From: Patescibacteria group bacterium
Lineage (GTDB): Bacteria > Patescibacteriota > Patescibacteriia > 2-12-FULL-57-11
NCBI GenBank assembly: GCA_004299275.1
Contig: SCSU01000066.1
Span: 14,277-78,276 of the forward strand
DNA length: 64,000 nt
Direction: 5' to 3'
Position numbers and translations under genes: made by a program. The notes under the pieces were generated by a model. The model did no database searches and was not told the DNA's origin. It saw only the letters and a program-made list of their open reading frames with translations. Positions within the stretch are counted from its first letter, which is position 1, and every line of letters begins with the position of its first letter. Shown here piece after piece: positions 1-59,550 of the stretch.

Positions 1-132
1 TTCCTGTCTTTCTGCGCTTTTGGCGCTTTTGGGTTAAGGAGCTCTTTATCTCTCTCGGACACGCCCGAGGGAGAAAAGCAACCAACAAGGTTAAGCGAAA
101 ATCAGAAATTTGTCAACCGGTGGATGTCTCTT

Positions 133-168
133 GACCTTCAAGGTCTGTTTTACAGACCTTCAAGGTCA
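133..168. repeat. GACCTTCAAGGTC hairpin doublet (TTCAA-loop family), copy 1
   Basis: ttGACCTTCAAGGTCtgttttacaGACCTTCAAGGTCaa. Same architecture as the copies at 7221, 41348 and 59507. Confidence 0.7.
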
Positions 169-1307
169 ATCGGCTTTTTGCCAATCCACTCGGCGACGAT
201 TTCACGGATATCTGCGGCCGACACCGTGGGCCGCGCGGCAGTAAGTTCTTTCCTGCGCAGTTTCTCCATGGCCCCAACCAGGTGCTCCAGGCGGCTGCGG
301 ATTTCCGTGAGTTCCGCTTCCTCGGTCAGTTCTGATTCCAAAGCTTTGAGATGTTCGAGTTCATCGCGCAGGCGTTTTTCTTCCTCGGATAAAGTTTGTC
401 CCCGCGTGGCGACGGCGGCGCCGGCGGCATGGAGCAGTCCCATGGCATGTTTGGCGTTGTGCGCCGCTTCAATCGAGACTTTGGCGCCGGCTTCGTCCAT
501 GAGGTCAATGGCTTTGTCCGGCAGATAGCGGTCTTTGATGAATTTTTTGGAGAGCTTGACGGCGGCGAGGAGCGCCGCGTCGTCAAAGACGACTCCATGA
601 TGCGCCTCATAGACCTCTTTAATGCCGCGCAGTATCTGGAGTGTGGCTTCCTCTGACGGCTCGCCGACAATCACCGGCTGGAAGCGGCGGTTCAGGGCGT
701 CGTCGGGTTTGATTAAATGTTCATATTCTTTCCAGGTGGTGGCGCCGATGGCCTGGAGCTCGCCGCGAGAGAGCGCCGGTTTTAATATATCCGAGACGTT
801 CATCGCTCCCTCGGCCCCTTTGGCCTGCTCGATCATGTGCACTTCGTCAATAAAGAGAATGATCCGCCGCGCCGTCCCCTTGATTTCATCGGTCAATTTT
901 TTCATCCGCTCTTCGAACTCGCCGCGATACTTGGTGCCGGAGATGAGGCCGCCTAAGTCCAAAGCGAGCACCCGTTTGTCACGGAGATTGTCGGGCACGT
1001 CGCCGGCGGCGATGCGCCGGGCGATTCCTTCCACGACCGCAGTTTTACCGACTCCGGGCTCGCCCAAAAGCAGAGGATTGTTTTTGGTGCGGCGCGAGAG
1101 AATGTGGATTACTCGGTCAATCTCCTCGGCGCGGCCGATGACCGGGTCGAGCGCCTTAGCCTCGGCCTCTTTGGTCAAATCGCGGGTGTAGGTTTGGAGC
1201 ACCGTTCCCTTGAAGCCGCCGCCGGCTCTCTGCCGCGAGTTGTACCACCAATAGAGCAGTCCAGCCAAAGCCAGCACCAAAACGATGAATATTTGAGTAG
1301 TGGCCAT
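150..1307 (-). CDS. Clp/Hsp100-family AAA+ ATPase with only the first nucleotide-binding domain (NBD1) and a coiled coil; N-terminal TM helix; ends just before where ClpB NBD2 would begin
   Basis: Walker [11 protein letters not shown] and a conserved Clp NBD1 block ([19 protein letters not shown]). The last ~9 codons and the stop codon are supplied by the dispersed hairpin repeat at 133-168. Confidence 0.8.
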
Positions 1308-3702: not shown

Positions 3703-4152
3703 CTAGATGAGCGAAAAGCCGGCGTAACCGTGCCAGAGGAGCACCGCTTCGTTCCGAGGGTCGAGGATTGTCTCCTCGCCCGAGAAGTCAGCGAAGTCGA
3801 GGTTGGCTGGGAGATTGTGGTACTCGAGTCCGTCGCTCGTGAAGTGCGTTGGCCCGCGGCCGCCGACCCAGATCTCCTCCTCGTAGGCCGAGAGCAATGC
3901 TTGCCTCAAGAAGGGAATGACGCGCTCGTCGTCCTTGCGCCAGCCGCGGTAGTGCATTCCCCAGACCGGCTGCTCCCGCCACCAGATGAGTATCTGGCCG
4001 AGGACCCGCTTGCCGATCGTGTGGCAGTCATCGGTGTAGCGCCAGTCCCCCTTTTGGTAGAAGGCGCTGGCAGCTGCCTCGGCTCCTGATTTTCGGCAGG
4101 CCTCCCGGCTGGCCCCGAAAAAGAACTGCTTGATTTCGGCATGGTTCGGCAC
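3703..4152 (-). CDS. hypothetical protein (A-type), co-oriented with the B-type gene
   Basis: 149-aa ORF with 15 nt to the next gene; no domain recognised. Confidence 0.5.
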   Translation of the reverse strand: MPNHAEIKQFFFGASREACRKSGAEAAASAFYQKGDWRYTDDCHTIGKRVLGQILIWWREQPVWGMHYRGWRKDDERVIPFLRQALLSAYEEEIWVGGRGPTHFTSDGLEYHNLPANLDFADFSGEETILDPRNEAVLLWHGYAGFSLI

Positions 4153-4261
4153 GTTCCCCTCCTTTGTTTGGGCGCGATGAAGGTATCAGGTAATTTTTTT
4201 TGAGGCAAGTGGATGCTCGCCAGAGGCTCGACCTCCTCAGAGGTCGAGCCTCTGGCGAGCA

Positions 4262-4360
4262 TTCGGTTATTCGTACGTTCGTCGCCTGCTTAGTCGTACT
4301 TTCGCAAAATTCGTAATTCGTAGATTTGTACTGATTCGTAATTCGTAATCCGTAATTCGT
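4262..4360. repeat. TTCGTAA heptamer array (locus B), preceded on the - strand by a hairpin plus T-run terminator
   Basis: attcgtaattcgtagatttgtactgattcgtaattcgtaatccgtaattcgtaaccc. Then ataaaaaaaccgcgagacgtgtagtccgcgg, which is a rho-independent terminator in - sense. Confidence 0.7.
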
Positions 4361-4451
4361 AACCCATAAAAAAACCGCGAGACGTGTAGTCCGCGGCGGG
4401 GGCCGTCCTTCGCTAAAGCTACGGACGGTAAATGGCGTGCGATGACTCCGC

Positions 4452-4736
4452 TCATTGGATTTTGAAGCTGATGGAGCGGTTCCGGATGGTGCTCTGGCGC
4501 ACACGGTTGGGGCCGAGCGCTCGTTCGACGATGAGCGCGAGGAACCTCCAGACGATGGCGTCTTTGGGCGGAACAATCATCGGGCCGGCCCAGACGTCGA
4601 AGAGGGTCCCGCCCGAGTCGAAGAGGCGCACCTCCATACTGCCGTCCTCCCCGACGCTGTCCCAGCTGATTTGCACTTCCCCGATGCCCGCCTGGTGTCT
4701 GGTCAGGTGGTTGTGGAGCTCTTCCGACGGTGTCAC
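4452..4736 (-). CDS. hypothetical protein (B'-type paralog)
   Basis: 94 aa, homologous to 3401..3688. Confidence 0.55.
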   Translation of the reverse strand: MTPSEELHNHLTRHQAGIGEVQISWDSVGEDGSMEVRLFDSGGTLFDVWAGPMIVPPKDAIVWRFLALIVERALGPNRVRQSTIRNRSISFKIQ

Positions 4737-5473: not shown

Positions 5474-7213
5474 TCATCGTTTTAACGCTTTAAGGAACGC
5501 CTCGCAAGGGAGAGTGTTTAAAATATCCTTTTCTGTTGCCCAGCCGCGGCGCGCTTGGGCGACTCCGAGCTCGAGCCAAGAGTAGTGGTGCGGGGCGTGG
5601 GCGTCGGAGTCAACCACCAGTTTCACCCCGAGTTTGACCGCCTCGCGGATGTGGCTATCGCGGAGGTCTAACCGTTCCATCGAGCCGTTTATTTCCACGG
5701 CCACGCCGTACTCTTTGGCCGCGCGGAGAATTTTTAAAATATCCACTGGATACGGTTCGCGGCGGCCGATCAGCCGTCCGGTCGGGTGGAAGAGAACGTT
5801 CACCAGTGGGTGCTTTAGCGCGCGGATAATTCGGTTGGTCATTTCTGATTCGGAAAGGTTGAAATGCGAGTGCACGGCGACACAGACCAAATCCAATTTT
5901 TTGAGCGCCGCGTCGGCGATGTCGAGCATTCCGTCTTTTAAGATATTAACTTCGGCGCTTTTTAAAATTCGGAATTTTCGATGTAGAATTTTGTATTTCG
6001 AATTTAGTGCTTCGATTTCTTTACCCTGCTTCTCCAAATCTTTTTCCGTCAGCCCGCCGGTCATGGCTAACTGCCGCGTGTGGTCAGTAATGGCGATATA
6101 AGACAGGCCGTTCTTGGCCGCGGCCTCGGCCATCGCGGCGATTGACGCCGCGCCGTCAGTCCAGTTGGTCTGCACCTGGAGATCGCCCTTAAGCGAGCCG
6201 TAAGGGATGAGTTGGGGCAGGGCGTGTTTGGCCGCCGCCTCAATTTCGCCGGCAGCGCTGCGGAGCTCGGGCGGAATCCAGTCCAAGCCGAGTTTTTGAT
6301 AAATTTCTTGCTCCGTTTTTCCCGCGATGTGTTTCTCTCCCTTGAACAGCCCGTATTCCGAAAGCTTCCACCCCTTTTTAATGGCGATTTTTCGGATTTC
6401 GATGTTATGCGTTTTGTCGCCGGTAAAATACTGGAGCGCGGCGCCAAAACTCGCCGGCGGCAGGACGCGCAAATCGGCCTCGATCCCGGCGCTGAGGCGC
6501 ACGTTGGCTTTGGTCGGCCCGCGGCCGGTGACCTCGAGCACATCCGGGTGTTTGCAAAAAACATCCAGCGTCCGTCCGGAATTTTTGGCGATGGCCAGAA
6601 TATCAATATCGCCAACTGTTTCCTGCCGGCGCCGATAGGAGCCGGCAATAACCACTTCCTCCACACCGGGAACTTTGCGGATGGCGTCGGTCAGACGTCG
6701 GGCAACGGGGTCAACCGCGCCGAGCATAAAACGGCCGCGGCTTCGTTTTTGAAATTCAATACTCCGCAGAATTTTTTGCTCGGCGCGCGCTCCGTGGCGC
6801 GGCAGAGTGCGGATTTTGCCGGCGCGCGCCGCTTGCTCGAGGTCAGCGACCGTGCGCACTTTGAGTTTTTTCCAGAGCAGTTTGATGGTCTTCGGTCCCA
6901 CGCCTTCGACCGCGGTGAGCGCCTCCACGTCCACCGGCATTTTCTTTTTTAATTTTTCGTAGTAGGCGAGCTTGCCGGTCTTGAGCAGTTCTTCAATTTT
7001 TTCGGCGATGCTCACGCCGACTCCGGGCACGGAGTTGAGCGCTTTGATTCCCCCCTCGTTGTAGATATCTGCTAGCGACTGACCCAGGGACTCAATCGTC
7101 GCCGCCACGCGCTGGTAAGCGCGGGGCTTAAACGGTATCTCGTCCATTTCCAAAAAATCGGCGATGGTGTAGAAAATTTCGGCGATTTCCTGATTAGAAG
7201 GAATACGCGCCAT
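5474..7213 (-). CDS. polX: family X DNA polymerase with a C-terminal PHP domain (PolX)
   Basis: HhH motifs, GSYRRRQETVGDIDIL nucleotidyltransferase motif, and PHP histidines at the C-terminus (HTRQLAMTGG..., HSHFNLSE). Confidence 0.9.
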   Translation of the reverse strand: MARIPSNQEIAEIFYTIADFLEMDEIPFKPRAYQRVAATIESLGQSLADIYNEGGIKALNSVPGVGVSIAEKIEELLKTGKLAYYEKLKKKMPVDVEALTAVEGVGPKTIKLLWKKLKVRTVADLEQAARAGKIRTLPRHGARAEQKILRSIEFQKRSRGRFMLGAVDPVARRLTDAIRKVPGVEEVVIAGSYRRRQETVGDIDILAIAKNSGRTLDVFCKHPDVLEVTGRGPTKANVRLSAGIEADLRVLPPASFGAALQYFTGDKTHNIEIRKIAIKKGWKLSEYGLFKGEKHIAGKTEQEIYQKLGLDWIPPELRSAAGEIEAAAKHALPQLIPYGSLKGDLQVQTNWTDGAASIAAMAEAAAKNGLSYIAITDHTRQLAMTGGLTEKDLEKQGKEIEALNSKYKILHRKFRILKSAEVNILKDGMLDIADAALKKLDLVCVAVHSHFNLSESEMTNRIIRALKHPLVNVLFHPTGRLIGRREPYPVDILKILRAAKEYGVAVEINGSMERLDLRDSHIREAVKLGVKLVVDSDAHAPHHYSWLELGVAQARRGWATEKDILNTLPCEAFLKALKR

Positions 7214-7220
7214 ATATCAG

Positions 7221-7263
7221 CACGGACCTTGAAGGTCCGTTTTTCAGACCTTTAAGGTCCGTG
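7221..7263. repeat. GGACCTTGAAGGTCC / CAGACCTTTAAGGTCC hairpin doublet, copy 2
   Basis: cacGGACCTTGAAGGTCCgtttttCAGACCTTTAAGGTCCgtg. Confidence 0.75.
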
Positions 7264-7266
7264 TCA

Positions 7267-7542
7267 CTATTTGACGAGCCGGAAGGGGTTCACGGCATTC
7301 TCCCACTGCGGTTCCTTTTTCATTTTCCGTTTTTTGTTCGCTTCAAGAATTTCCCGGAAGATTTTGTAGTCCAAAGGTTCAATCGCATATTCGCGCTGGA
7401 GCGTCACGATGTATTCGGTCTGGGTGATGGTTTTGTAGAGGTAATTGTAAAGAAAGAAAAAAATGAACAGGACGGAGATGAACACGCTCACAATCATAAT
7501 GAGGAGCGAAAGCCGGTAGATTTGTTTCAAAGTCAGCTTCAT
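7267..7542 (-). CDS. small membrane protein, hypothetical
   Basis: 91 aa with one TM helix; its end overlaps the next gene by 4 nt. Confidence 0.45.
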   Translation of the reverse strand: MKLTLKQIYRLSLLIMIVSVFISVLFIFFFLYNYLYKTITQTEYIVTLQREYAIEPLDYKIFREILEANKKRKMKKEPQWENAVNPFRLVK

Positions 7543-16899: not shown

Positions 16900-16956
16900 A
16901 GTTACAAAGGGTAAGTATACGCCTTTTGCGGGCAAAGACAACCGCGCGAACCGGAA

Positions 16957-16987
16957 GAGGTTGGATCTCCCAAGGAGATCCAACCTC
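16957..16987. repeat. GGAGATCC palindromic hairpin (GAGGTTGGATCTCC-caa-GGAGATCCAACCTC)
   Basis: Perfect 14-bp stem; family members at 33631-33662 and 36879-36913. Confidence 0.75.
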
Positions 16988-17045
16988 GAGGAGGTTTGCG
17001 GCCTTGCCTCTGTCCGTTCCTGTTGTTAAACTCATCGCACAAAAT

Positions 17046-23498: not shown

Positions 23499-23705
23499 AA
23501 CTTTTTGGCGCCCCTCTCTGGCGCGTTATCCACAGTTCAGCGTAACACGAACCTTCCCTGCCTTGTGGATTACTCCTTGTCAAGCCCCCGAGTTTAGTCC
23601 CGAATTTCGTGATTTAAGTTCCCGAGCAAAGTCGAGGGACTACATAAAATCCGCATTTTGATCTCGACTAAGCGCTTCCTTATATATATGATGCCTTTGC
23701 CAGCC

Positions 23706-23737
23706 AAGGTCTGACCTTGCAAGGCCAGACCTTGATG
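23706..23737. repeat. overlapping GACCTTGCAAGG palindromes immediately upstream of tRNA-Leu(TAG)
   Basis: caaGGTCTGACCTTGCAAGGCCAGACCttg. Confidence 0.55.
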
Positions 23738-23738
23738 T

Positions 23739-27922: not shown

Positions 27923-29656
27923 CCTAACCGTTAGTTCGGTGCACGCCGCTTGGGAGCCCCCGAGCGGTTTTTCGTTTCTAAGAGCTTCCGCGTTTGGCGC
28001 ATTGTGTTGACGAGACGTTGTCTTTGGCCACTGACGCTAGTGGGTGTCCAAAGTTCAGCGGAACGTGGCGGGACTTTGACAATTTAATGACGAATAAAAA
28101 GGGTAATGAAAAATAGCTCCATAAGCGCGAAAAGGACGTTTTCGTGCTTCAGTGGAGTGAGAGCATACACTAAGGGCAAACGGTGGATGCCTCGACACAA
28201 GAAGCCGATGAAGGACGTAGCAGCCTGCGATAAGCCCCGGGGAAGTGGCAAGCAACTTTTGATCCGGGGATTTCCGAATGGGGAAACCCATCGTGCTGGA
28301 AGAGCACGGTATCGTGCGCTGAATCCATAGGCGTACGAAGGGCACCTGGCGAAGTGAAACATCTCAGTAGCCAGAGGAAGAGAGACAAAAAATGCTGACC
28401 CAACAGACAACCGACAACTTACAACGAACAACCGAAAGGTTGGGAGTTGTTCGTTGATCGTTGTCCGTTGCGTCAGCTGGATTCCCCTAGTAGTGGCGAG
28501 CGAACGGGGACCAGCCGAAACTCCAGGCGTGATTCACCGAACTGACCCCGACTTTACGTCGGGGCGCAGACGGCTGATGAAGGTGTAGGCCGCTGCGCCT
28601 GGAGGGTAACAGGATCGTGACGTCGGACGCCTACTCGTCCGGGTAGAGGAAACCGCAAGGACATGTCTTCCCAAGCAGAATCCGCTGGAAAGCGGAACCA
28701 GAGCGGGTGATAGTCCCGTACGCGAATGGGGACATAACTCTACTGTCGCGAACCCTCAGTACCGCGGGTCTCGTGAAAGCCTGCGGGAAAGCGCCGCGAC
28801 TATGCGGCAAGGCTAAATACTTCTTGTGATCGATAGTGAACCAGTACCGTGAGGGAAAGGTGAAAAGCAGCCCGGAAGGGCGATGAAACAGTATCTGAAA
28901 CCGTTTGCTTACAAGGAGTCAGAGCCGTGCGCAGCACGGCGACTATCAACTACCAACTATCAACAAAACAACGGTCAATAATTCTGTTGCCCGTTGTGTG
29001 TTGTAAGTTGTGTGTTGGTTGTTGCCGCGCTGTGCGCGGTGATGGCGTTCCTATTGAAGAATGAGCCAACGAGTTTGCCGTGCGTCGCTTAGGTTAAGTC
29101 CCTGAGGGGACGAAGCCGGAGCGAAAGCGAGTCTGAATAGGGCGTATGGACTTTAGAGGCGGAGTTGGAGCCGGCGCGCAAGCGTCAAACCTCCAACTTC
29201 TCACCTCTAATTTCCAAAGGTGGCGCACGCAAGACCCGAAACCCGGTGACCTAGCCATGACCAGGGTGAACTCCGCCGAAAGGCGGAGGGAGGCCCGAAC
29301 CCGTAAGCCGTGCAACACTTTGGGATGAGTCGTGGTTAGCGGAGAAATTCCAATCGAACTGGGTGATAGCTGGTTCTCCCCGAAATAGCTTGAGGGCTAG
29401 CGTCGGTTACACCTCGCGAGGGGTAGAGCACTGAAAGGAAAGCGGTGGAGCAATCCTACGCGTTCCTACCAAACTCCGAATACTCGCGGGGCATCCCGGC
29501 AGTCAGAGCATGGGGGCTAAGCTCCATCGCTCAAAAGGGAAACAGCCCAGATCGCAGTCTAAGGCCCCTAAATCTTCCCGACCTAAAGTCGGGACTCCGA
29601 CACCGCAAGGTCGTCGGAGCGGTTAAGTGTCAAAGGTTGTGGAGTAACTTAAACAA

Positions 29657-29687
<31 letters not shown>

Positions 29688-30780
29688 TAAAGAAAGCGTA
29701 ACAGCTCACTGGTCAAGTCGCTCTGCGCCGAAAATATACCGGGGCTAAAACCGAGTGCCGAAGACGCGACTCCGACGTAAGTCGGAGGGTAGGGGAGCAT
29801 TCTGTCCGCGCTGAAGCCGCGCCGTAAGACGCGGTGGAGCGAACAGAAGGGAGAATGTTGGCATAAGTAGCAAAAAGACGGGTGAGAACCCCGTCCGCCG
29901 TAAACCCAAGGTTTCCTGGGCAACGCAAATCGTCCCAGGGTTAGTCGGTCCTAAGGCGAGGCCAAGAGGCGTAGCCGATGGATGAGCAGGTTAATATTCC
30001 TGCACTACGGCCGTGTCAGGCGCGAGAGGACGCGTCGCAATATCTTCCGAGTTCGAAGGCTACACTTCCGGTGTCGCAAGCCGGCCGCGAGGCAAATCCC
30101 GCGGCGCAAAGCAAGCGATGCCGGCTAGTCTGCGAGTAATCGCGGGCAAGGGAAGAAAATGTGGCGCCTAGAAAAGTCTCGCGATAACGGCATGGCCGCA
30201 CCCGTACCGGAAACCGACACAGGTGGGTGGGCATAAGTGTGCCCAGGCGTACGAGAGAAACATCGTTCAGGAACTCGGCAATACAGCGGCCGTAACTTCG
30301 GGATAAGGCCTACCCCGACGTAAAGTCGGGGTCGCAGCGAAAGACGCTTAGCGACTGTTTACCAAAAACACAGGTCCCTGCGAAGTCGAAAGACAATGTA
30401 TAGGGGCTGATGCCTGGCCAGTGTCAGAACGTTACGGGGAGAGGTCATGGCCGACGCAAGTCGGCCGGCAGCCTTGAACCTAAGCGCTGATGAACGCCGG
30501 CGATAACTATAATCGTCCTAAGGTTCCCTGAATCACTGGCAAGTGGTTCCGGGTAGGACTGGGACGATTATCGAATGGTGAACAAGCAAGCTACCTTGCT
30601 CTGCAGCAATGCAGAGAAAAAGTCCGTTAATGGCTAAATACCTACGTTTCCGAAGAACTAGGTAGGGAAGTCCGATTTTTCGGACCCCGAGAGACCATAC
30701 GCCATGCTCCCGACATACCGTCGGGATGAAGACATGGTCCTTCGTTTAAGGAATCGGAGAGCGAAATTCCTTGTCGGGTG

Positions 30781-30811
<31 letters not shown>

Positions 30812-31050
30812 GAGCGACTGTCTTAACGATGTACTCGGCGAAATTGCAAGATGAGTGAAGATGCTCATTACCCGTGGTTAGACGAAAAGACCCCGTGAAG
30901 CTTTACTACAACTTGCTATTGGCTGCATGCTTCGCCTGTTCAGCGTAGGTGGGAGGTCCGACGAAAGTCGGACCAACAATGAGACACCACCCTTGCGCTG
31001 CGTGCAGTCTCATCTCCGGCCGTGATCCGGCTGGGGAGACAGTAGCTGGT

Positions 31051-31096
<46 letters not shown>

Positions 31097-31166
31097 TTTA
31101 CCAAGGTCGGCTTAGCTCCGATGGAAACGGAGCTGGACGTGCAAGCGCACAAGCCGGCTTTACTGC

Positions 31167-31198
<32 letters not shown>

Positions 31199-31268
31199 AA
31201 GCTAGTGATCCGACCGTTCGAAGTAGGACGGCGGAAGCTCATCGGATAAAAGCTACTCCGGGGATAAC

Positions 31269-32119
31269 CCCAAAAGGGTTGTTGTCCCGATCCGACGGTA
31301 ACGTCGGATCATGAAAACGGCTAATAACGGTGGAGTCCCGCCAGGCGGGATAATACCGTGGGAAGTTCTTCGTCTCATCATCATAATTATGATTGAACGC
31401 GAACGAAATATCGTGATTGGTTGCGTACTTGGCGACGGTTTTCTCCAATCGACCGGAAGACATAACGCGCGGCTGCGGCTCGAGCATTCCATCAAACAGA
31501 AGGAATATCTCGAGTGGAAGTGGCGCGAACTGGCGCGCTATATGCAAGATCGCCCCAAGCGCCTGGTTCGTTGGAATCCGGTTTGGAAAAAACGTTACGA
31601 GTATCTGCGATGCCAATCGCACAGTTCGCCGCAATTCGGCAAGCTTCGGGAATTATTCTATCGCGATCAGACGCGGCAGGTTCCCGATGAGATAGCCAAG
31701 TTGCTGCGCTCGCCGCTCTCGTTGGCGGTTTGGTTTATGGATGACGGATATTACTATACGCGAGATCGCGTAGCGTATATCTATCTTCCTAAACTATCCG
31801 CCGATGACATTCGGCGTTTGTGTCAAGCATTAAATGATGATTTTGATCTTCATCCGAAGGTCGAACGCAAGAAAACTGGGGCACTAAACCTCAAATTTTC
31901 TGCGGCAGAAACGAAAAAATTAATTAAGATAATCGCCCCGCATATAATCAAAAGTATGCGGTACAAAATCGGCGAAGAACCCCGTATCGACTGAGTCCTA
32001 TGGACGAGGTGGCGCAGAGGAGGGAATATCCGCGCCACAATATGCCGTACTCCTTGTCTGGCGAGACAAGGATGAAGATATAGTCAGTGCCCTTAGTAAT
32101 AAGGGAGTAAAACATGAAC
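31269..32119 (+). mobile_element. group I intron 1 in the 23S peptidyl-transferase region (after GGGGATAAC), carrying a LAGLIDADG ORF
   Basis: The exon sequence GATAAC|AGGCTGATC is split by ~850 nt. Confidence 0.75.
31311..31994 (+). CDS. LAGLIDADG homing endonuclease (intron-encoded)
   Basis: Two LAGLIDADG-type motifs, [11 protein letters not shown] and [10 protein letters not shown]. Confidence 0.85.
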
Positions 32120-32200
32120 AGGCTGATCGGGTCCAAGAGTCCACATCGACGACCCGGTTTGGCACCTCGATGTCGGCCCGTCGCATCCTGGGGCTGGAGA

Positions 32201-32937
32201 AAACATACCTTCTCTCCTGCGAGGAAACTCGCGGGTAATAAACAAGCTCAAACGGTAGAGACCACACCATACGACCTTCCTGTTTCGGAGGTCCCAGGTC
32301 TGCTATAGTGCAGATGTATGACGGTTAATGCCGTAGGAAAGGAATGCGTTGAAGTCGATCGAGCATATCTTGCCGGTCTCATTGACGGTGATGGTGCCAT
32401 CATGGCTATCATCGAACCGCACAGTGAGAAGAAATTTCGTTTCCGTGTTCGGATCGAAGTAAAAGTGACTCAAAAGCATGAGGAAGACGTCTCGTTTTTG
32501 CCGAAACTTTTGGGTTGCGGATTGATTCGAACAAATAGGACAACGTATGAGTGGATTACACGAGACCAGCAACATGTCTTGCGTATCCTCTCAATGGTTC
32601 GTCCTTATACGAGAATGAAAAATCGGCAGATGGAAATAGCAATGAAGATCATCCGTACTCCGATACGGACTCAGGGTGATCTTTTGCGCGTTGCTCGATT
32701 GGCAGATGCATTGGCGCGTTTCAACGTGCGATCCAACAATCGCCGTAGGAACTATGCGACAATGATCGAAACGCATTTCTCCTCTAACGACTGATTGGTA
32801 AACGTTGGGTTTACCATGAGATATGCCCCGCCATGGCGGGGGTATCATACGGCTTGCACCTGTGTTGTGTCCGGTGACGGATATCAATATGGTGATGGAA
32901 TAGTCTGATACTCGCGGAAACGCGAGATAACAAAAAT
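32201..32937 (+). mobile_element. group I intron 2 in the 23S (after CCTGGGGCTGgag), carrying a LAGLIDADG ORF
   Basis: The exon sequence GGGGCTG..AGGTCCCAAGGGT is split by ~740 nt. Confidence 0.75.
32318..32794 (+). CDS. LAGLIDADG homing endonuclease (intron-encoded, single-motif type)
   Basis: YLAGLIDGDG motif. Confidence 0.85.
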   Translation: MTVNAVGKECVEVDRAYLAGLIDGDGAIMAIIEPHSEKKFRFRVRIEVKVTQKHEEDVSFLPKLLGCGLIRTNRTTYEWITRDQQHVLRILSMVRPYTRMKNRQMEIAMKIIRTPIRTQGDLLRVARLADALARFNVRSNNRRRNYATMIETHFSSND

Positions 32938-32965
32938 GAGGTCCCAAGGGTTTGGCTGTTCGCCA

Positions 32966-33288
<323 letters not shown>

Positions 33289-33630
33289 TCGGTCTCCTAT
33301 CTACCACGGGCGCAGAAACTTGCGGGGGCGCTCTCTCAGTACGAGAGGACCGGAGAGCACGAACCTCTTGTGTACCAGCTGTCCTGCCAAGGGCATCGCT
33401 GGGTAGCGAAGTTCGGAACGGATAAACGCTGAAAGCATCTAAGCGTGAAGCCGTCCCCAAGATTAGGTTTCATTACGAGACCCCAGAGAGATGATCTGGT
33501 TGATCGGCGGCAGGTGTAAGGCCCGCAAGGGTTTGAGCCGAGCCGTACGAATCGGTCCAGTGTGCTCCTCTAACCACTGAAGCACGAAGCCGTTCTTCAT
33601 TACCTATTTATTCGTCAATTTCAAAAGACA

Positions 33631-33662
33631 GAGATCCGATCTCCCATAGGAGATCGGATCTC
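33631..33662. repeat. GGAGATCC palindromic hairpin (GAGATCCGATCTCC-cata-GGAGATCGGATCTC) in the 23S-5S spacer
   Basis: Perfect 14-bp stem. Confidence 0.75.
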
Positions 33663-33687
33663 GATGTCGCTTTGGCCGCAGCATTCT

Positions 33688-35627: not shown

Positions 35628-35680
35628 CTACGCAGTCGAGTTCCGATTCCCTCCGGAGATCGGCTCTCGTGCGTTATTTT

Positions 35681-36674: not shown

Positions 36675-37949
36675 ATGAAAACCATCCTTGACCTCCATAT
36701 CCACTCGCGTTTTTCGCGGGCCTGTTCCAAGGACCTCACCCTTCCGAATATCGCCCGGTGGTGCGAGCGGAAGGGGATTGACATTGTGGGCACTGGAGAT
36801 TTTACGCATCCGGTCTGGCTTTCGGAAATCAAAAACCAGCTCACCGAGAGCGAGCCGGGAATTTTTCGGCTCAGGATCGGAGATCCAATCTCCAGAACGG
36901 AGATTGGATCTCCAGCCCGTTTCATGCTCACGACCGAACTTTCCTCAATCTACAAACAGGGCGATAAGGTGCGTCGCGTGCACCATCTAATTTGCATGCC
37001 GACGATCGCGGCAGTAGAGCGTTTGGTCGCGGCGCTGGAAGCGCGCGGCTGTAACCTCAAGTCCGACGGCCGGCCGATTCTCGGCCTGAACTCCAAAGAA
37101 CTTCTACAGATAGTACTGGAAGCTGACAGCCGTTCGCTGCTCATCCCGGCGCACGCTTGGACGCCATGGTTCGCGATTTTCGGCTCGGAGTCCGGGTTTG
37201 ATTCCATTGAAGAATGTTTTGGTGACGAGTTAGCCAAGGAAATCCATGCCATCGAAACCGGACTTTCCTCGGACCCGCCGATGAATTGGCGACTGTCGGC
37301 GCTTGACCGCGTGATGCTCGTTTCCAATTCCGACGCGCACTCGCTCCGGAACCTCGGTCGCGAGGCGAATCAGCTGGACCTTGCCGAGCAGTCTTTTGAC
37401 GCTTTTTCCTCCATTTTGAAAAATCGGGACAGAACACGCTTTCTCCAAACGCTTGAATTTTTTCCCGAGGAGGGCAAGTATCACGCTGACGGCCATCGGC
37501 TCTGCGGCGCGCGCTTGACCCCGGCGGAGACTAAGCGGCAGGGCGGCAAGTGCCCGGTTTGTGGCAAGCCGGTCACGGTCGGCGTGCTCCATCGCGTGGA
37601 CGCGCTCGCCGACCGGCCGGAAGGGACGCGCTCGCCGAGCGCGGTGCCCTTTACCCATTTAGTACCGCTCGAAGAGGTCATTGCCGACACCCTCGGCAAA
37701 GGCAAGGGGACAAAAACCGTGAATGATTTGTATCTGAAGCTGACCGACATTGCGCCGGAGTTCTCGCTGCTCTTTGACTTTCCGCTTGCCGACCTCGCGG
37801 GAAGAGTTGCTGAACCGATTATTGAAGCGCTTCGTCGCTTGCGGGAGGGAAAGGTAAAAGTGCTCCCGGGCTACGACGGCGAGTATGGGACAATCAAAAT
37901 TTTTTCTGAAGAGGAACGACGCGGGCCGGCGCAGGGAAAATTAATTTAA
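36675..37949 (+). CDS. PHP-domain nuclease with a zinc ribbon, endonuclease Q-like
   Basis: LDLHIHSRFS PHP start, conserved His/Asp, and CPVCGKPVTVGVLHRV. Contains an in-frame 35-nt palindromic insertion at 36879-36913. Confidence 0.55.
   Translation: MKTILDLHIHSRFSRACSKDLTLPNIARWCERKGIDIVGTGDFTHPVWLSEIKNQLTESEPGIFRLRIGDPISRTEIGSPARFMLTTELSSIYKQGDKVRRVHHLICMPTIAAVERLVAALEARGCNLKSDGRPILGLNSKELLQIVLEADSRSLLIPAHAWTPWFAIFGSESGFDSIEECFGDELAKEIHAIETGLSSDPPMNWRLSALDRVMLVSNSDAHSLRNLGREANQLDLAEQSFDAFSSILKNRDRTRFLQTLEFFPEEGKYHADGHRLCGARLTPAETKRQGGKCPVCGKPVTVGVLHRVDALADRPEGTRSPSAVPFTHLVPLEEVIADTLGKGKGTKTVNDLYLKLTDIAPEFSLLFDFPLADLAGRVAEPIIEALRRLREGKVKVLPGYDGEYGTIKIFSEEERRGPAQGKLI
36879..36913. repeat. 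GGAGATCC palindromic hairpin inserted in-frame in a CDS (encodes ...GDPISRTEIGSPA...)
   Basis: GGAGATCCAATCTCC-agaac-GGAGATTGGATCTCC, a perfect 15-bp stem. Confidence 0.75.
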
Positions 37950-38675: not shown

Positions 38676-38733
38676 TTTGGCCGAAAAAGAGATTGGACCT
38701 CCCGCGGAGGCCCAATCTCTGTTATTATTTCAT

Positions 38734-39736: not shown

Positions 39737-39768
39737 AGGTTAGACCTTGCAAGGTCTAACCTTGACCA
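39737..39768. repeat. perfect palindrome TTAGACCTTGCAAGGTCTAA upstream of tRNA-Ile
   Basis: 20-bp perfect palindrome with the GACCTTGCAAGGTC core shared with 23706-23737. Confidence 0.6.
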
Positions 39769-39809: not shown

Positions 39810-39886
39810 GGGCGTGTAGCTCAGTTGGTTAGAGCGTCACACTGATAATGTGAAGGTCGGTGGTTCGACTCCACCCACGCCCACCA
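39810..39886 (+). tRNA. tRNA-Ile (anticodon GAT)
   Basis: gggcgtgtagctcagttggttagagc...ctGATaa...ggttcgactcc..cacgccca+CCA. Confidence 0.9.
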
Positions 39887-43984: not shown

Positions 43985-45560
<1,576 letters not shown>

Positions 45561-45675
45561 AGAGAAAACCCCTCTACCCTCGCGGGTTTCGGGGCTCAAT
45601 CAATGAGTCATTACCCAACTTGCCTGCCATAGGCAGGCGTTGTTTTTGTTGTTGGAGTTTCACTCGAAAATTATA

Positions 45676-59506: not shown

Positions 59507-59550
59507 CACAGACCTTGAAGGTACGTTTTTACAGACCTTCAAGGTCTGTG
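59507..59550. repeat. CAGACCTTGAAGGTACG / CAGACCTTCAAGGTCTG hairpin doublet, copy 4
   Basis: gcaCAGACCTTGAAGGTACgtttttaCAGACCTTCAAGGTCTGtg, in the divergent region between hsp20 and 59622. Confidence 0.75.

What the first reader, a model, noticed from the sequence alone, without database searches (positions are those of the whole stretch)
36879..36913. GGAGATCC palindromic element family; one copy is inserted in-frame inside a PHP-nuclease gene
Three perfect 14-15-bp-stem hairpins share the core GGATCTCC-loop-GGAGATCC, with covarying outer stems (ttgg/ccaa, ccga/tcgg, ccaat/attgg). They lie at 16957-16987 (intergenic near tRNA-Gly), 33631-33662 (23S-5S spacer) and 36879-36913. The last one lies within the EndoQ-like CDS, keeps the reading frame, and adds roughly GDPISRTEIGSPA to the protein. 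In-frame palindromic insertions into coding genes are known from Rickettsia palindromic elements; this looks like an analogous but unrelated family.
Basis: seen in the sequence. Interest (0 to 1): 0.65.

Follow-up and report, generated by a model that had tools for sequence, protein, structure and literature searches.

The report
In-frame REP-like hairpin in endoQ
The 35-base hairpin inside the EndoQ nuclease gene is a translated copy of a tiny palindromic repeat that is scattered through the genomes of ultra-small (CPR/Patescibacteria) bacteria, sits inside genes as often as between them, and in related genomes flanks a REP-type (RAYT) transposase gene.

Summary
The window holds four related hairpins, not three. 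Each consists of two inverted 15-bp units, GGAGAT-N3-ATCTCC. The copy at 36879-36913 encodes residues 69-80 (GDPISRTEIGSP) of an intact EndoQ-family protein. None of 119 homologues has this segment, and neither does the solved P. furiosus EndoQ. In the AF2 model it is a floppy tip between two beta strands.

The same doublet occurs in dozens of other Patescibacteria assemblies. It lies in frame inside housekeeping genes, in all three codon phases and on both strands. It is as frequent inside ORFs as random positions are (66% vs 62%).

In related metagenomic contigs the doublets, including the window's own CCA/TGG subfamily, flank or invade a Y1 HUH transposase gene. The best structural match of that protein is the E. 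coli REP-associated tyrosine transposase (4ER8).

It is therefore best read as a REPIN-like element of a REP-RAYT system, tolerated in a permissive loop. Four other EndoQ lineages carry unrelated palindromes in the same loop. Intragenic REPs are already known (Di Nocera 2013). This family has no GTAG/CGTC tag, is mostly intragenic and is CPR-wide, so I rate it a new variant of a known kind. No RAYT gene lies in the window, and mobilisation is inferred, not shown.

The parts
36879..36913 (.). In-CDS REPIN-like doublet. Unit A is 36879-36893 (GGAGATCCAATCTCC), the centre is 36894-36898 (AGAAC) and unit B is 36899-36913 (GGAGATTGGATCTCC). It forms a perfect 15-bp stem.
   Evidence: RNA fold -31.9 kcal/mol, z -4.1, 0 of 200 shuffles fold as well. 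Read directly, no stop codon in any of the six frames. It encodes G69-P80 of the EndoQ-family protein.
36675..37949 (+). Host gene: an EndoQ-family (PHP-type) endonuclease CDS of 424 aa, apparently intact.
   Evidence: Full-length match to PfuEndoQ 5ZB8/7K30 (E 4.5e-57). Thousands of homologues with invariant His/Asp columns retained. AF2 model has mean pLDDT 88.7; residues 67-81 are coil between strands 63-66 and 82-95, and the 71-80 block has mean pLDDT 58.
16956..16988 (.). Family member 1: AGAGGTTGGATCTCC-CAA-GGAGATCCAACCTCG. The outer hexamers carry a compensatory A:T to G:C change. It is intergenic, between a minus-strand lipoprotein-like gene and tRNA-Gly.
33630..33664 (.). Family member 2: AGAGATCCGATCTCC-CATA-GGAGATCGGATCTCG, in the 23S-5S spacer. 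A relative with 92.8% identical 16S lacks it.
38685..38723 (.). It is flanked by an A-run and a T-rich run and lies between convergent genes, so it looks like a terminator.

Best explanation
The hairpin is one copy of a miniature, non-autonomous palindromic repeat of the REP/REPIN kind. It consists of two inverted 15-bp units (GGAGAT-N3-ATCTCC) that fold into a stem of about 15 bp.

Shown: the family is dispersed in this genome and across Patescibacteria. In related genomes the doublets, including the window's exact CCA/TGG subfamily, flank or invade a gene for a Y1 HUH transposase whose closest solved structure is the E. coli REP-associated tyrosine transposase.

Inferred: that enzyme recognises the folded single-stranded hairpin and copies or moves it through single-stranded DNA intermediates, as established for IS200/IS605 TnpA and, in vitro, for E. 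coli TnpA-REP. One such event placed a copy in the loop-coding part of endoQ.

Shown: the conserved hexamers contain no stop codon in any of the six frames, and the net change was +24 nt, so the frame was kept. The 12 palindrome-encoded residues sit in a disordered surface loop that tolerates insertions.

Shown in other copies: stems stay complementary through paired changes. Inferred: this reflects either selection for a foldable hairpin (recognition by the transposase) or arm-to-arm correction by template switching. The effect on EndoQ itself is probably neutral.
For: Family and structure: 4 copies in 64 kb. The pattern has 22 fixed bases, and I estimate fewer than one chance hit in 596 Gb. 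It hit 41 loci in genomes and 92 in metagenomes. The doublet is the unit, whereas single units occur only about twice as often as in shuffled sequence.

DNA-level element, not a protein motif: copies use all three codon phases (26/21/18) and both strands. The hosts are unrelated housekeeping genes with Pfam domains on both sides (TopA, UvrB, UvrC, RecG, CysRS, IF-2, Mur ligase, glycosyltransferases and others). Two glycosyltransferases with no other similarity share an identical 39-nt element.

Insertion in endoQ: absent from 119 homologues and from PfuEndoQ, and located in a coil of low pLDDT. The same loop carries unrelated palindromes in four other lineages (fold z -3.8 to -6.0). Short-loop orthologues score about 0, and a conserved long-loop subfamily scores -0.8.

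Transposase link: L067 ORF 397-1035 matches Y1_Tnp (PF01797; 35 bits against a cut-off of 23). Full doublets lie 22 nt before its ATG and 3 nt after its stop, and a single unit sits in frame inside it. Homologues abut or contain doublets in L127, L081, L106 and L144, and variant units flank the gene in L049. L081, L106 and L144 have arms identical to the window copy. These proteins are common in Moranbacteria and Parcubacteria, and JGI names some of them RayT. HUH and Tyr columns are invariant. The AF2 model's top PDB match is 4ER8 (E 1.5e-7, target-normalised TM 0.72).

Stem maintenance: orthologous UvrC elements differ by four concerted changes (GGAGAT to GGAGGT in both units) that keep all pairing. 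L057 and L136 have CGA..TCG against TGG..CCA at the same site.
Against: No RAYT-like gene lies in the 64-kb window (tblastn). The link therefore rests on other genomes.

The family lacks the GTAG or CGTC tag that marks described REP superfamilies (flanks).

The insertion boundaries are undefined. The net gain is 24 nt for a 35-nt palindrome, so ancestral codons were replaced or re-used. No orthologue above 72% identity exists to show an empty site.

No target-site duplication is evident.

Copies are as frequent in ORFs as random positions. That is more than simple 'random insertion plus purifying selection' predicts, and it leaves room for a function.

Conservation of the arms among pattern-found orthologues is partly an ascertainment effect.

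The NCBIfam RAYT model is hit below its cut-off (22.8 against 80 bits).
Confidence: 0.72

Rival explanations
1. The hairpins are selected cis-acting signals, at the RNA or DNA level. Candidates include processing or terminator-like structures, translational pause sites at domain boundaries, and binding sites for a dimeric protein. On this view they are kept for that function wherever they occur, including inside endoQ.
For: Perfect stems are kept with complementary changes at orthologous sites. The hexamer is conserved across CPR lineages. Many copies sit between Pfam domains. There is no avoidance of coding sequence. Site 4 looks like a bidirectional terminator.
Against: Contexts are heterogeneous: a protein loop, a divergent intergenic region, an rRNA spacer and a convergent gene pair. 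Presence varies among close relatives. Some copies are perfect palindromes with no loop (GGTACC, ATAT centres), which suits DNA better than RNA hairpins. The physical association with a RAYT-type gene points to mobility.
Confidence: 0.15
2. The palindrome arose on the spot by template-switch (quasi-palindrome) mutation in the loop-coding DNA, without any transfer from another locus.
For: A relative has GATCCGGGA at the homologous position, a possible seed. The net gain (24 nt) is shorter than the palindrome. Template switching can create and perfect palindromes (established knowledge).
Against: The arms are identical to copies in other genomes (L106, L081, L144, L034, L014). They differ by 1-3 positions from three other copies in the window. 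Unrelated genes share a 39-nt identical element.
Confidence: 0.06
3. The segment is ordinary ancestral coding sequence or a protein motif that happens to be palindromic, or it is an assembly artefact.
For: The frame is kept and the gene is intact.
Against: The segment is absent from all 119 homologues. The same DNA is read in all three phases elsewhere. An independent assembly is identical. The family is found in assemblies from many studies and assemblers.
Confidence: 0.02

Closest known systems
Intragenic REPs of the GTAG/CGTC-tagged REP superfamilies (Di Nocera, De Gregorio & Rocco 2013, BMC Genomics 14:522, PMC3733652; it includes Rickettsia RPE-4/-6 as CGTC REPs)
   Same: Both are short palindromic units, mostly arranged as inverted dimers that can fold into larger hairpins. 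Some copies lie in frame inside genes for known proteins, notably uvrA/B/C/D and other replication and repair genes, and are thought neutral because they sit in linkers or loops. Here the hosts include UvrB, UvrC (several), RecG, a UvrD-like helicase, TopA and EndoQ.
   Different: There is no GTAG or CGTC tag. The unit is a symmetric 6-3-6 palindrome. The hosts are Patescibacteria, which that survey did not cover. About two thirds of copies are intragenic, as for random positions, whereas described REPs are predominantly extragenic with a minority inside genes.
REPIN-RAYT systems (Bertels & Rainey 2011, PMC3116915; E. coli TnpA-REP structure 4ER8)
   Same: Both have inverted REP doublets that form a hairpin, genome-specific sequence subfamilies, and a Y1 HUH transposase gene flanked by the repeats. 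The CPR protein's best structural match is 4ER8.
   Different: The doublet is much more compact (33-37 bp, with a 2-8 nt centre). It lies in coding sequence. The RAYT-like protein is about 212 aa, has a C-terminal helical extension and only 15% identity to 4ER8, and is itself invaded in frame by its own repeats. Mobilisation is untested.
Rickettsia palindromic elements (RPE-1 etc.; Ogata et al. 2000, as summarised in PMC10969869)
   Same: Both are palindromic repeats inserted in frame into unrelated genes and translated, at positions compatible with the protein fold.
   Different: RPE-1-type elements are about 100-150 bp, are found in Rickettsia and have an unrelated sequence. Here the element is 35 bp, in CPR, and linked to a RAYT-type gene.
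PARCELs (Roske et al. 2010, PMC2996958)
   Same: Both are coding DNA with dyad symmetry spread among microbes with small genomes.
   Different: PARCELs are tandem arrays of a 25-residue amphipathic repeat in surface proteins. They are not single hairpins inserted into housekeeping enzymes.

Membership tests
REP/REPIN-RAYT system | A short palindromic unit repeated many times in a genome | tested here: met
   There are 4 copies in the 64-kb window. One Moraniibacteriota MAG has 17 loci with an exact pattern match, and further degenerate copies occur in the same loci.
REP/REPIN-RAYT system | Units paired in inverted orientation so that they fold into a larger hairpin (REPIN) | tested here: met
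   54 doublets are tabulated. Their central triplets are reverse complements of each other, and both head-to-head and tail-to-tail arrangements occur. Single units occur only about twice as often as in shuffled sequence.
REP/REPIN-RAYT system | A RAYT (Y1 HUH transposase) gene flanked by the repeats (REPtron), tested in genomes that carry the family | tested here: met
   In L067 the gene is flanked on both sides. In L127 and L081 a doublet lies at the 3' end. L127, L106 and L144 have in-frame or disrupting internal doublets. In L049 variant units flank the gene. The protein matches Pfam Y1_Tnp above its cut-off, has invariant HUH and Tyr columns, and its top Foldseek hit is 4ER8.
REP/REPIN-RAYT system | A RAYT gene in the genome of the window itself | tested here: inconclusive
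   tblastn finds none in the 64-kb window. The rest of the genome (the contig is 93 kb, plus other contigs) is not available here.
REP/REPIN-RAYT system | A conserved GTAG (or CGTC) tetranucleotide at one end of the unit | tested here: not met
   The flanks of 54 doublets show no GTAG/CTAC or CGTC/GACG tag. In one MAG the units are flanked by T...A.
REP/REPIN-RAYT system | Predominantly extragenic location | tested here: not met
   66% of 98 non-redundant doublets lie in an ORF that is open for at least 50 codons on both sides, against 62% of random positions in the same loci.
REP/REPIN-RAYT system | Binding, cleavage or mobilisation of the repeat by the RAYT | not testable with these tools
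   This needs biochemistry or population sequencing.
Rickettsia palindromic elements | Sequence membership in an RPE family; about 100-150 bp; Rickettsia | tested here: not met
   The element is 35 bp with an unrelated sequence, and the host is named Patescibacteria.
Rickettsia palindromic elements | In-frame insertion into unrelated protein-coding genes at structurally permissive sites | tested here: met
MITE (TIR/TSD type) | A target-site duplication flanking terminal inverted repeats | tested here: inconclusive
   No direct repeat is seen next to the doublets. The exact insertion boundaries are unknown because no near-identical empty site exists.
Intrinsic terminator | A G+C-rich hairpin followed by a T-run at a gene end | tested here: not met
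   The copy at 36879-36913 is inside the CDS and is followed by AGCCCGTTTC. Only the copy at 38685-38723 has an A-run and a T-rich flank.
Endonuclease Q (host gene) | Full-length homology to solved EndoQ with the catalytic PHP residues conserved | tested here: met
   5ZB8/7K30 match at E 4.5e-57 over residues 6-412. The invariant D6, H8 and H10 columns and others are retained.

The most novel reading that the evidence does not exclude
Patescibacteria, and perhaps DPANN archaea, carry REPIN-like elements built from hexamers that are stop-free in all six frames. These elements colonise coding sequence with no avoidance and are kept as perfect hairpins by complementary change over long divergence. 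Together with several other palindrome families, they are a main source of the lineage-specific loop and linker insertions seen in CPR proteins. One EndoQ loop and one UvrC linker are occupied by different palindromes in lineage after lineage. This would imply either a frame-preserving or site-preferring insertion mechanism, or a host-level benefit of intragenic hairpins.
Probability: 0.35. Interest if true: 0.75.

Novelty: new variant of a known kind. Interest (0 to 1): 0.62.

Why it matters
REP/REPIN elements are textbook 'extragenic' repeats, and how they persist and what they do is still debated. Here a REP-like family linked to a RAYT-type transposase lives mostly inside essential genes of bacteria with about 1-Mb genomes and almost no intergenic space.

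This gives a concrete source for the many lineage-specific insertions in CPR proteins. It is also a natural experiment on which protein sites tolerate 11-13 extra residues. It shows that RAYT-REP systems extend to the candidate phyla radiation.

It further offers a simple sequence signature (GGAGAT-N3-ATCTCC, twice). The signature can flag such inserts so they are not mistaken for functional protein features, and it can help recognise mis-binned contigs.

Tried and rejected
The RAYT-like gene was found later by inspecting loci with two doublets.
- Pairs of doublets in L016 and L015 were examined as possible transposase flanks. They lie inside UvrC and an IleRS-type gene.
- PDB sequence and profile searches with the RAYT-like protein gave nothing. 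Only the fold search worked.
- The viral-contig scan gave 0 hits.
- DNA for P0170 could not be fetched because the file was too large.
- Literature searches for CPR or Patescibacteria palindromic, in-frame or RAYT repeats found no description.
- tRNA T-arm mimic: rejected because the central triplet is variable.
- Illumina-adapter or assembly artefact: only the CGG variant resembles AGATCGGA; the family occurs in many studies and keeps reading frames.
- DNA-uptake sequence: rejected because the unit is a nested palindrome, not a short oriented motif.
- Tyrosine-recombinase core site: rejected because the centre length varies from 2 to 8 nt.
- Protelomerase site: rejected because the centres are not always palindromic.
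- Target-site duplication: none seen.
- Some metagenome hits (L056, L060, L070, L086, L121) are tandem direct repeats in repeat proteins. They were excluded as a different thing.

Full report
**The observation**

The window is a Patescibacteria (CPR) contig. The 424-aa protein encoded at 36675-37949 is 100% identical to an NCBI protein from a 'Patescibacteria group bacterium' on a 93-kb contig. The rRNA genes are unlinked, and the 23S gene carries group I introns.

A fourth, slightly imperfect member lies at 38685-38723 between convergent genes.

That octamer occurs only in two of the sites and is not over-represented on its own.

What all four share is a nested palindrome. A 15-bp unit, GGAGAT-NNN-ATCTCC, is followed after 3-5 nt by a second unit whose central triplet is the reverse complement of the first. 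The triplet pairs are TGG/CCA, CCG/CGG, CCA/TGG and TGG/CCA.

The 14-mer consensus with up to three mismatches is found 14 times against 5.5 expected, and none of 100 shuffles reaches that number.

Sites 1 and 4 depart from the consensus by changes that keep the long stem paired (GAGGT...ACCTC; ACCTCC...GGAGG).

**The copy inside the gene**

The host CDS is a bona fide EndoQ-family gene. It aligns over its whole length with the crystallised P. furiosus EndoQ (E 4.5e-57) and retains the invariant residues of the family.

The palindrome starts on a codon boundary and encodes G69-P80, GDPISRTEIGSP.

The nearest orthologues are 70-72% identical, 417 aa long and share the NTP-transferase/CofD/EndoQ gene order. 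They have six residues between the conserved L[KR] and RF anchors where the window protein has fourteen. None of 119 homologues contains the segment. Relative to PfuEndoQ it is an insertion.

An AlphaFold2 model has mean pLDDT 88.7 and pTM 0.89. It places residues 67-81 in a coil between strands 63-66 and 82-95, and the 71-80 block has mean pLDDT 58.

The mRNA hairpin would be strong (-31.9 kcal/mol, z -4.1).

The element has no stop codon in any of its six frames (read directly from the sequence).

The spacer copy (site 2) is likewise absent from a relative whose 16S is 92.8% identical.

**The family beyond the window**

I scanned 596 Gb of species-representative genomes with a pattern that fixes 22 bases. 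I estimate fewer than one chance hit. The scan returned 41 loci.

Nearly all of these are Patescibacteria assemblies: Moraniibacteriota, Jorgensenbacteria, Saccharibacteria and unclassified members. A few short contigs are labelled otherwise. One Moraniibacteriota MAG contributed 17 loci. The same pattern returned 92 metagenomic loci and no viral contigs.

The central triplet is largely genome-specific, and the doublet rather than the single unit is what recurs.

Most copies lie inside long ORFs. Pfam scans of 20 hosts show real housekeeping genes with domains on both sides of the element. They include topoisomerase I, UvrB, UvrC, RecG, a UvrD-like helicase, three aminoacyl-tRNA synthetases, IF-2, a Mur ligase, MurG, Lgt and glycosyltransferases. 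The elements usually sit between domains.

The elements are read in all three codon phases (26/21/18) and on both strands. This rules out a protein motif.

Among 98 non-redundant hairpin-type doublets, 66% lie in an ORF open for at least 50 codons on each side, against 62% of random positions in the same loci. There is therefore no avoidance of coding sequence.

Two glycosyltransferases from different genomes share nothing detectable except an identical 39-nt element at the inter-domain linker. This shows copying between unrelated loci.

**A permissive hot spot**

In the EndoQ loop, the other lineage-specific insertions that I could examine at the DNA level are all strong palindromes of unrelated sequence families. 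These are L006, L007, L008 and L053, with fold z-scores of -3.8 to -6.0.

Short-loop orthologues score about 0, and a conserved long-loop subfamily scores -0.8.

A linker of UvrC in 120 CPR homologues is similarly filled with lineage-specific peptides of the kind palindromes encode, including GGAGAT-type ones.

**Maintenance of the stem**

One comparison is free of search bias, because the orthologue was found through protein homology. UvrC genes that are 77% identical in DNA carry the element at the same position and with the same length.

They differ by GGAGAT to GGAGGT and ATCTCC to ACCTCC in both units. These four concerted substitutions keep every pair; there is also one change in the centre.

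A third relative of equal distance has only a weak 6-bp quasi-palindrome at that position.

Among pattern-found orthologues the centres diverge freely. The triplets stay the same or change complementarily. In those pairs the hexamers were fixed by the search pattern, so their conservation says nothing.

**The transposase link**

In metagenomic contig L067, two full doublets bracket a 212-aa ORF. One lies 22 nt before its ATG and the other 3 nt after its stop. A single unit also sits in frame inside the ORF.

The ORF matches Pfam Y1_Tnp above the gathering score. Its best NCBIfam model is 'REP-associated tyrosine transposase', though below that model's cut-off.

Homologues of this protein occur next to or around doublets in five further loci out of 861 kb of held DNA. 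Those loci had been collected only for containing a doublet. Three of them (L081, L106, L144) carry arms identical to the window's in-gene copy.

The protein family is abundant in Moranbacteria and Parcubacteria, and JGI names several members RayT. The HUH histidines and a tyrosine are invariant. An AlphaFold2 model (pLDDT 84.6) has the E. coli RAYT-REP hairpin complex 4ER8 as its best PDB match (E 1.5e-7, target-normalised TM 0.72), ahead of the IS608, ISDra2 and IS200 transposases.

No such gene lies in the window itself.

**Interpretation**

The most economical reading is that the hairpin is a REPIN-like doublet of a REP-RAYT system that landed in a permissive loop of endoQ and is translated.

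The steps that are shown:
- the family and its architecture
- the lineage-specific presence in endoQ and in the rRNA spacer
- the structural location of the insert
- the physical association with a RAYT-type gene in related genomes
- the complementary evolution of the stem

The steps that are inferred:
- that the RAYT-like enzyme mobilises the doublets through single-stranded DNA
- that the stem is kept because the enzyme needs it, or by template-switch correction
- that the insert is neutral for EndoQ

The main rival is a selected RNA- or DNA-level function. It is not excluded, and the lack of coding avoidance and the long-term stem conservation give it some weight. The heterogeneous contexts, the presence/absence among relatives, the loop-less perfect palindromes and the transposase link argue against it as the primary explanation.

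**Comparison with what is known**

Intragenic, in-frame REPs, often dimers and often in uvr and rec genes, were described for GTAG- and CGTC-tagged REPs in Proteobacteria, Opitutus, Rickettsia (RPE-4/-6) and others (PMC3733652). REPIN-RAYT systems and RPEs are also established.

The present family shares the logic but fails two defining features of described REPs. It has no GTAG or CGTC tag, and it is not predominantly extragenic. It also occurs in a lineage for which I found no description in the searchable literature. That library omits most subscription journals.

I therefore rate it a new variant of a known kind, of moderate to high interest.

Noticed in passing
window 131-169, 7208-7276, 23705-23734, 39737-39762, 59507-59550: A second dispersed palindrome family is built the same nested way. 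Its unit is about (G)ACCTT-N-AAGGT(C), present as an inverted pair. All copies are intergenic, and two lie just upstream of tRNA genes (tRNA-Leu at 23738, tRNA-Ile at 39810).
   Followed up: no
window 4213-4262: A perfect 23-bp-stem hairpin (ATGCTCGCCAGAGGCTCGACCTC-CTCA-...) lies inside a 182-aa ORF (4028-4576, minus strand) with no Pfam match. It could be another in-frame palindrome or a spurious ORF.
   Followed up: partly
window 28160-33559 and 43989-45566: The 23S rRNA is split by about 2 kb of insertions, including one clear and one weak group I intron (31876-32106, 32887-33227). The 16S gene is unlinked and on the opposite strand.
   Followed up: partly
EndoQ homologues P0011, P0014, P0015, P0095 (L007, L006, L008, L053), loop equivalent to window 36870-36920: The same beta-hairpin loop carries independent in-frame palindromes of unrelated sequence families in at least four other lineages. 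By peptide pattern, several more are likely (P0040/73/85/104, P0068, P0098, P0103).
   Followed up: yes
UvrC homologues P0121-P0240; L022 5813-5848 and 5172-5207; L016 51-1538: The linker between HIRDVALIS and RIEAYDISNIGGD is filled by lineage-specific peptides of the kind palindromes encode in nearly all 120 CPR homologues. One UvrC gene holds two different palindromic elements, and another holds two GGAGAT doublets.
   Followed up: partly
L067 582-598; L127 3246-3280; L106 1912-1946; alignment A2 columns 60-100: The RAYT-like transposase genes are themselves invaded in frame by their own repeat units, always in the loop before the HUH strand. In L106, and probably in L144, the gene looks truncated after the insert.
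   Followed up: partly
host genes of doublets in L016, L022, L036, L038, L043, L046 and the window: DNA repair and topology genes (UvrB, UvrC, RecG, UvrD-like, TopA, EndoQ) make up about a third of the identified hosts. This echoes the bias reported for intragenic REPs in PMC3733652. Gene length and linker content were not controlled.
   Followed up: no
L046 (Nanoarchaeota MAG, 3.9-kb contig), L045 (Caldithrix MAG, 2.3-kb contig), L016/L018/L040/L013 (bins labelled Gammaproteobacteria or Bdellovibrionales): Typical doublets occur in contigs binned to non-CPR taxa. This reflects either mis-binning of CPR contigs or spread of the family beyond CPR. A 2026 preprint reports RAYT (K07491) genes in Nanobdellota.
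   Followed up: no
L056, L060, L070, L086, L121 (metagenome): The search pattern also hits tandem direct repeats of GGAGAT-N3-ATCTCC-like units that encode repeat proteins (GDxIS..., WRCNLLP..., EEMESPS...). Their relation to the hairpin family is unknown.
   Followed up: no
window 35655-35669: A solitary unit-like palindrome GGAGATCGGCTCTCG (3 mismatches) lies near the start of the CofD-like CDS. It may be chance.
   Followed up: no
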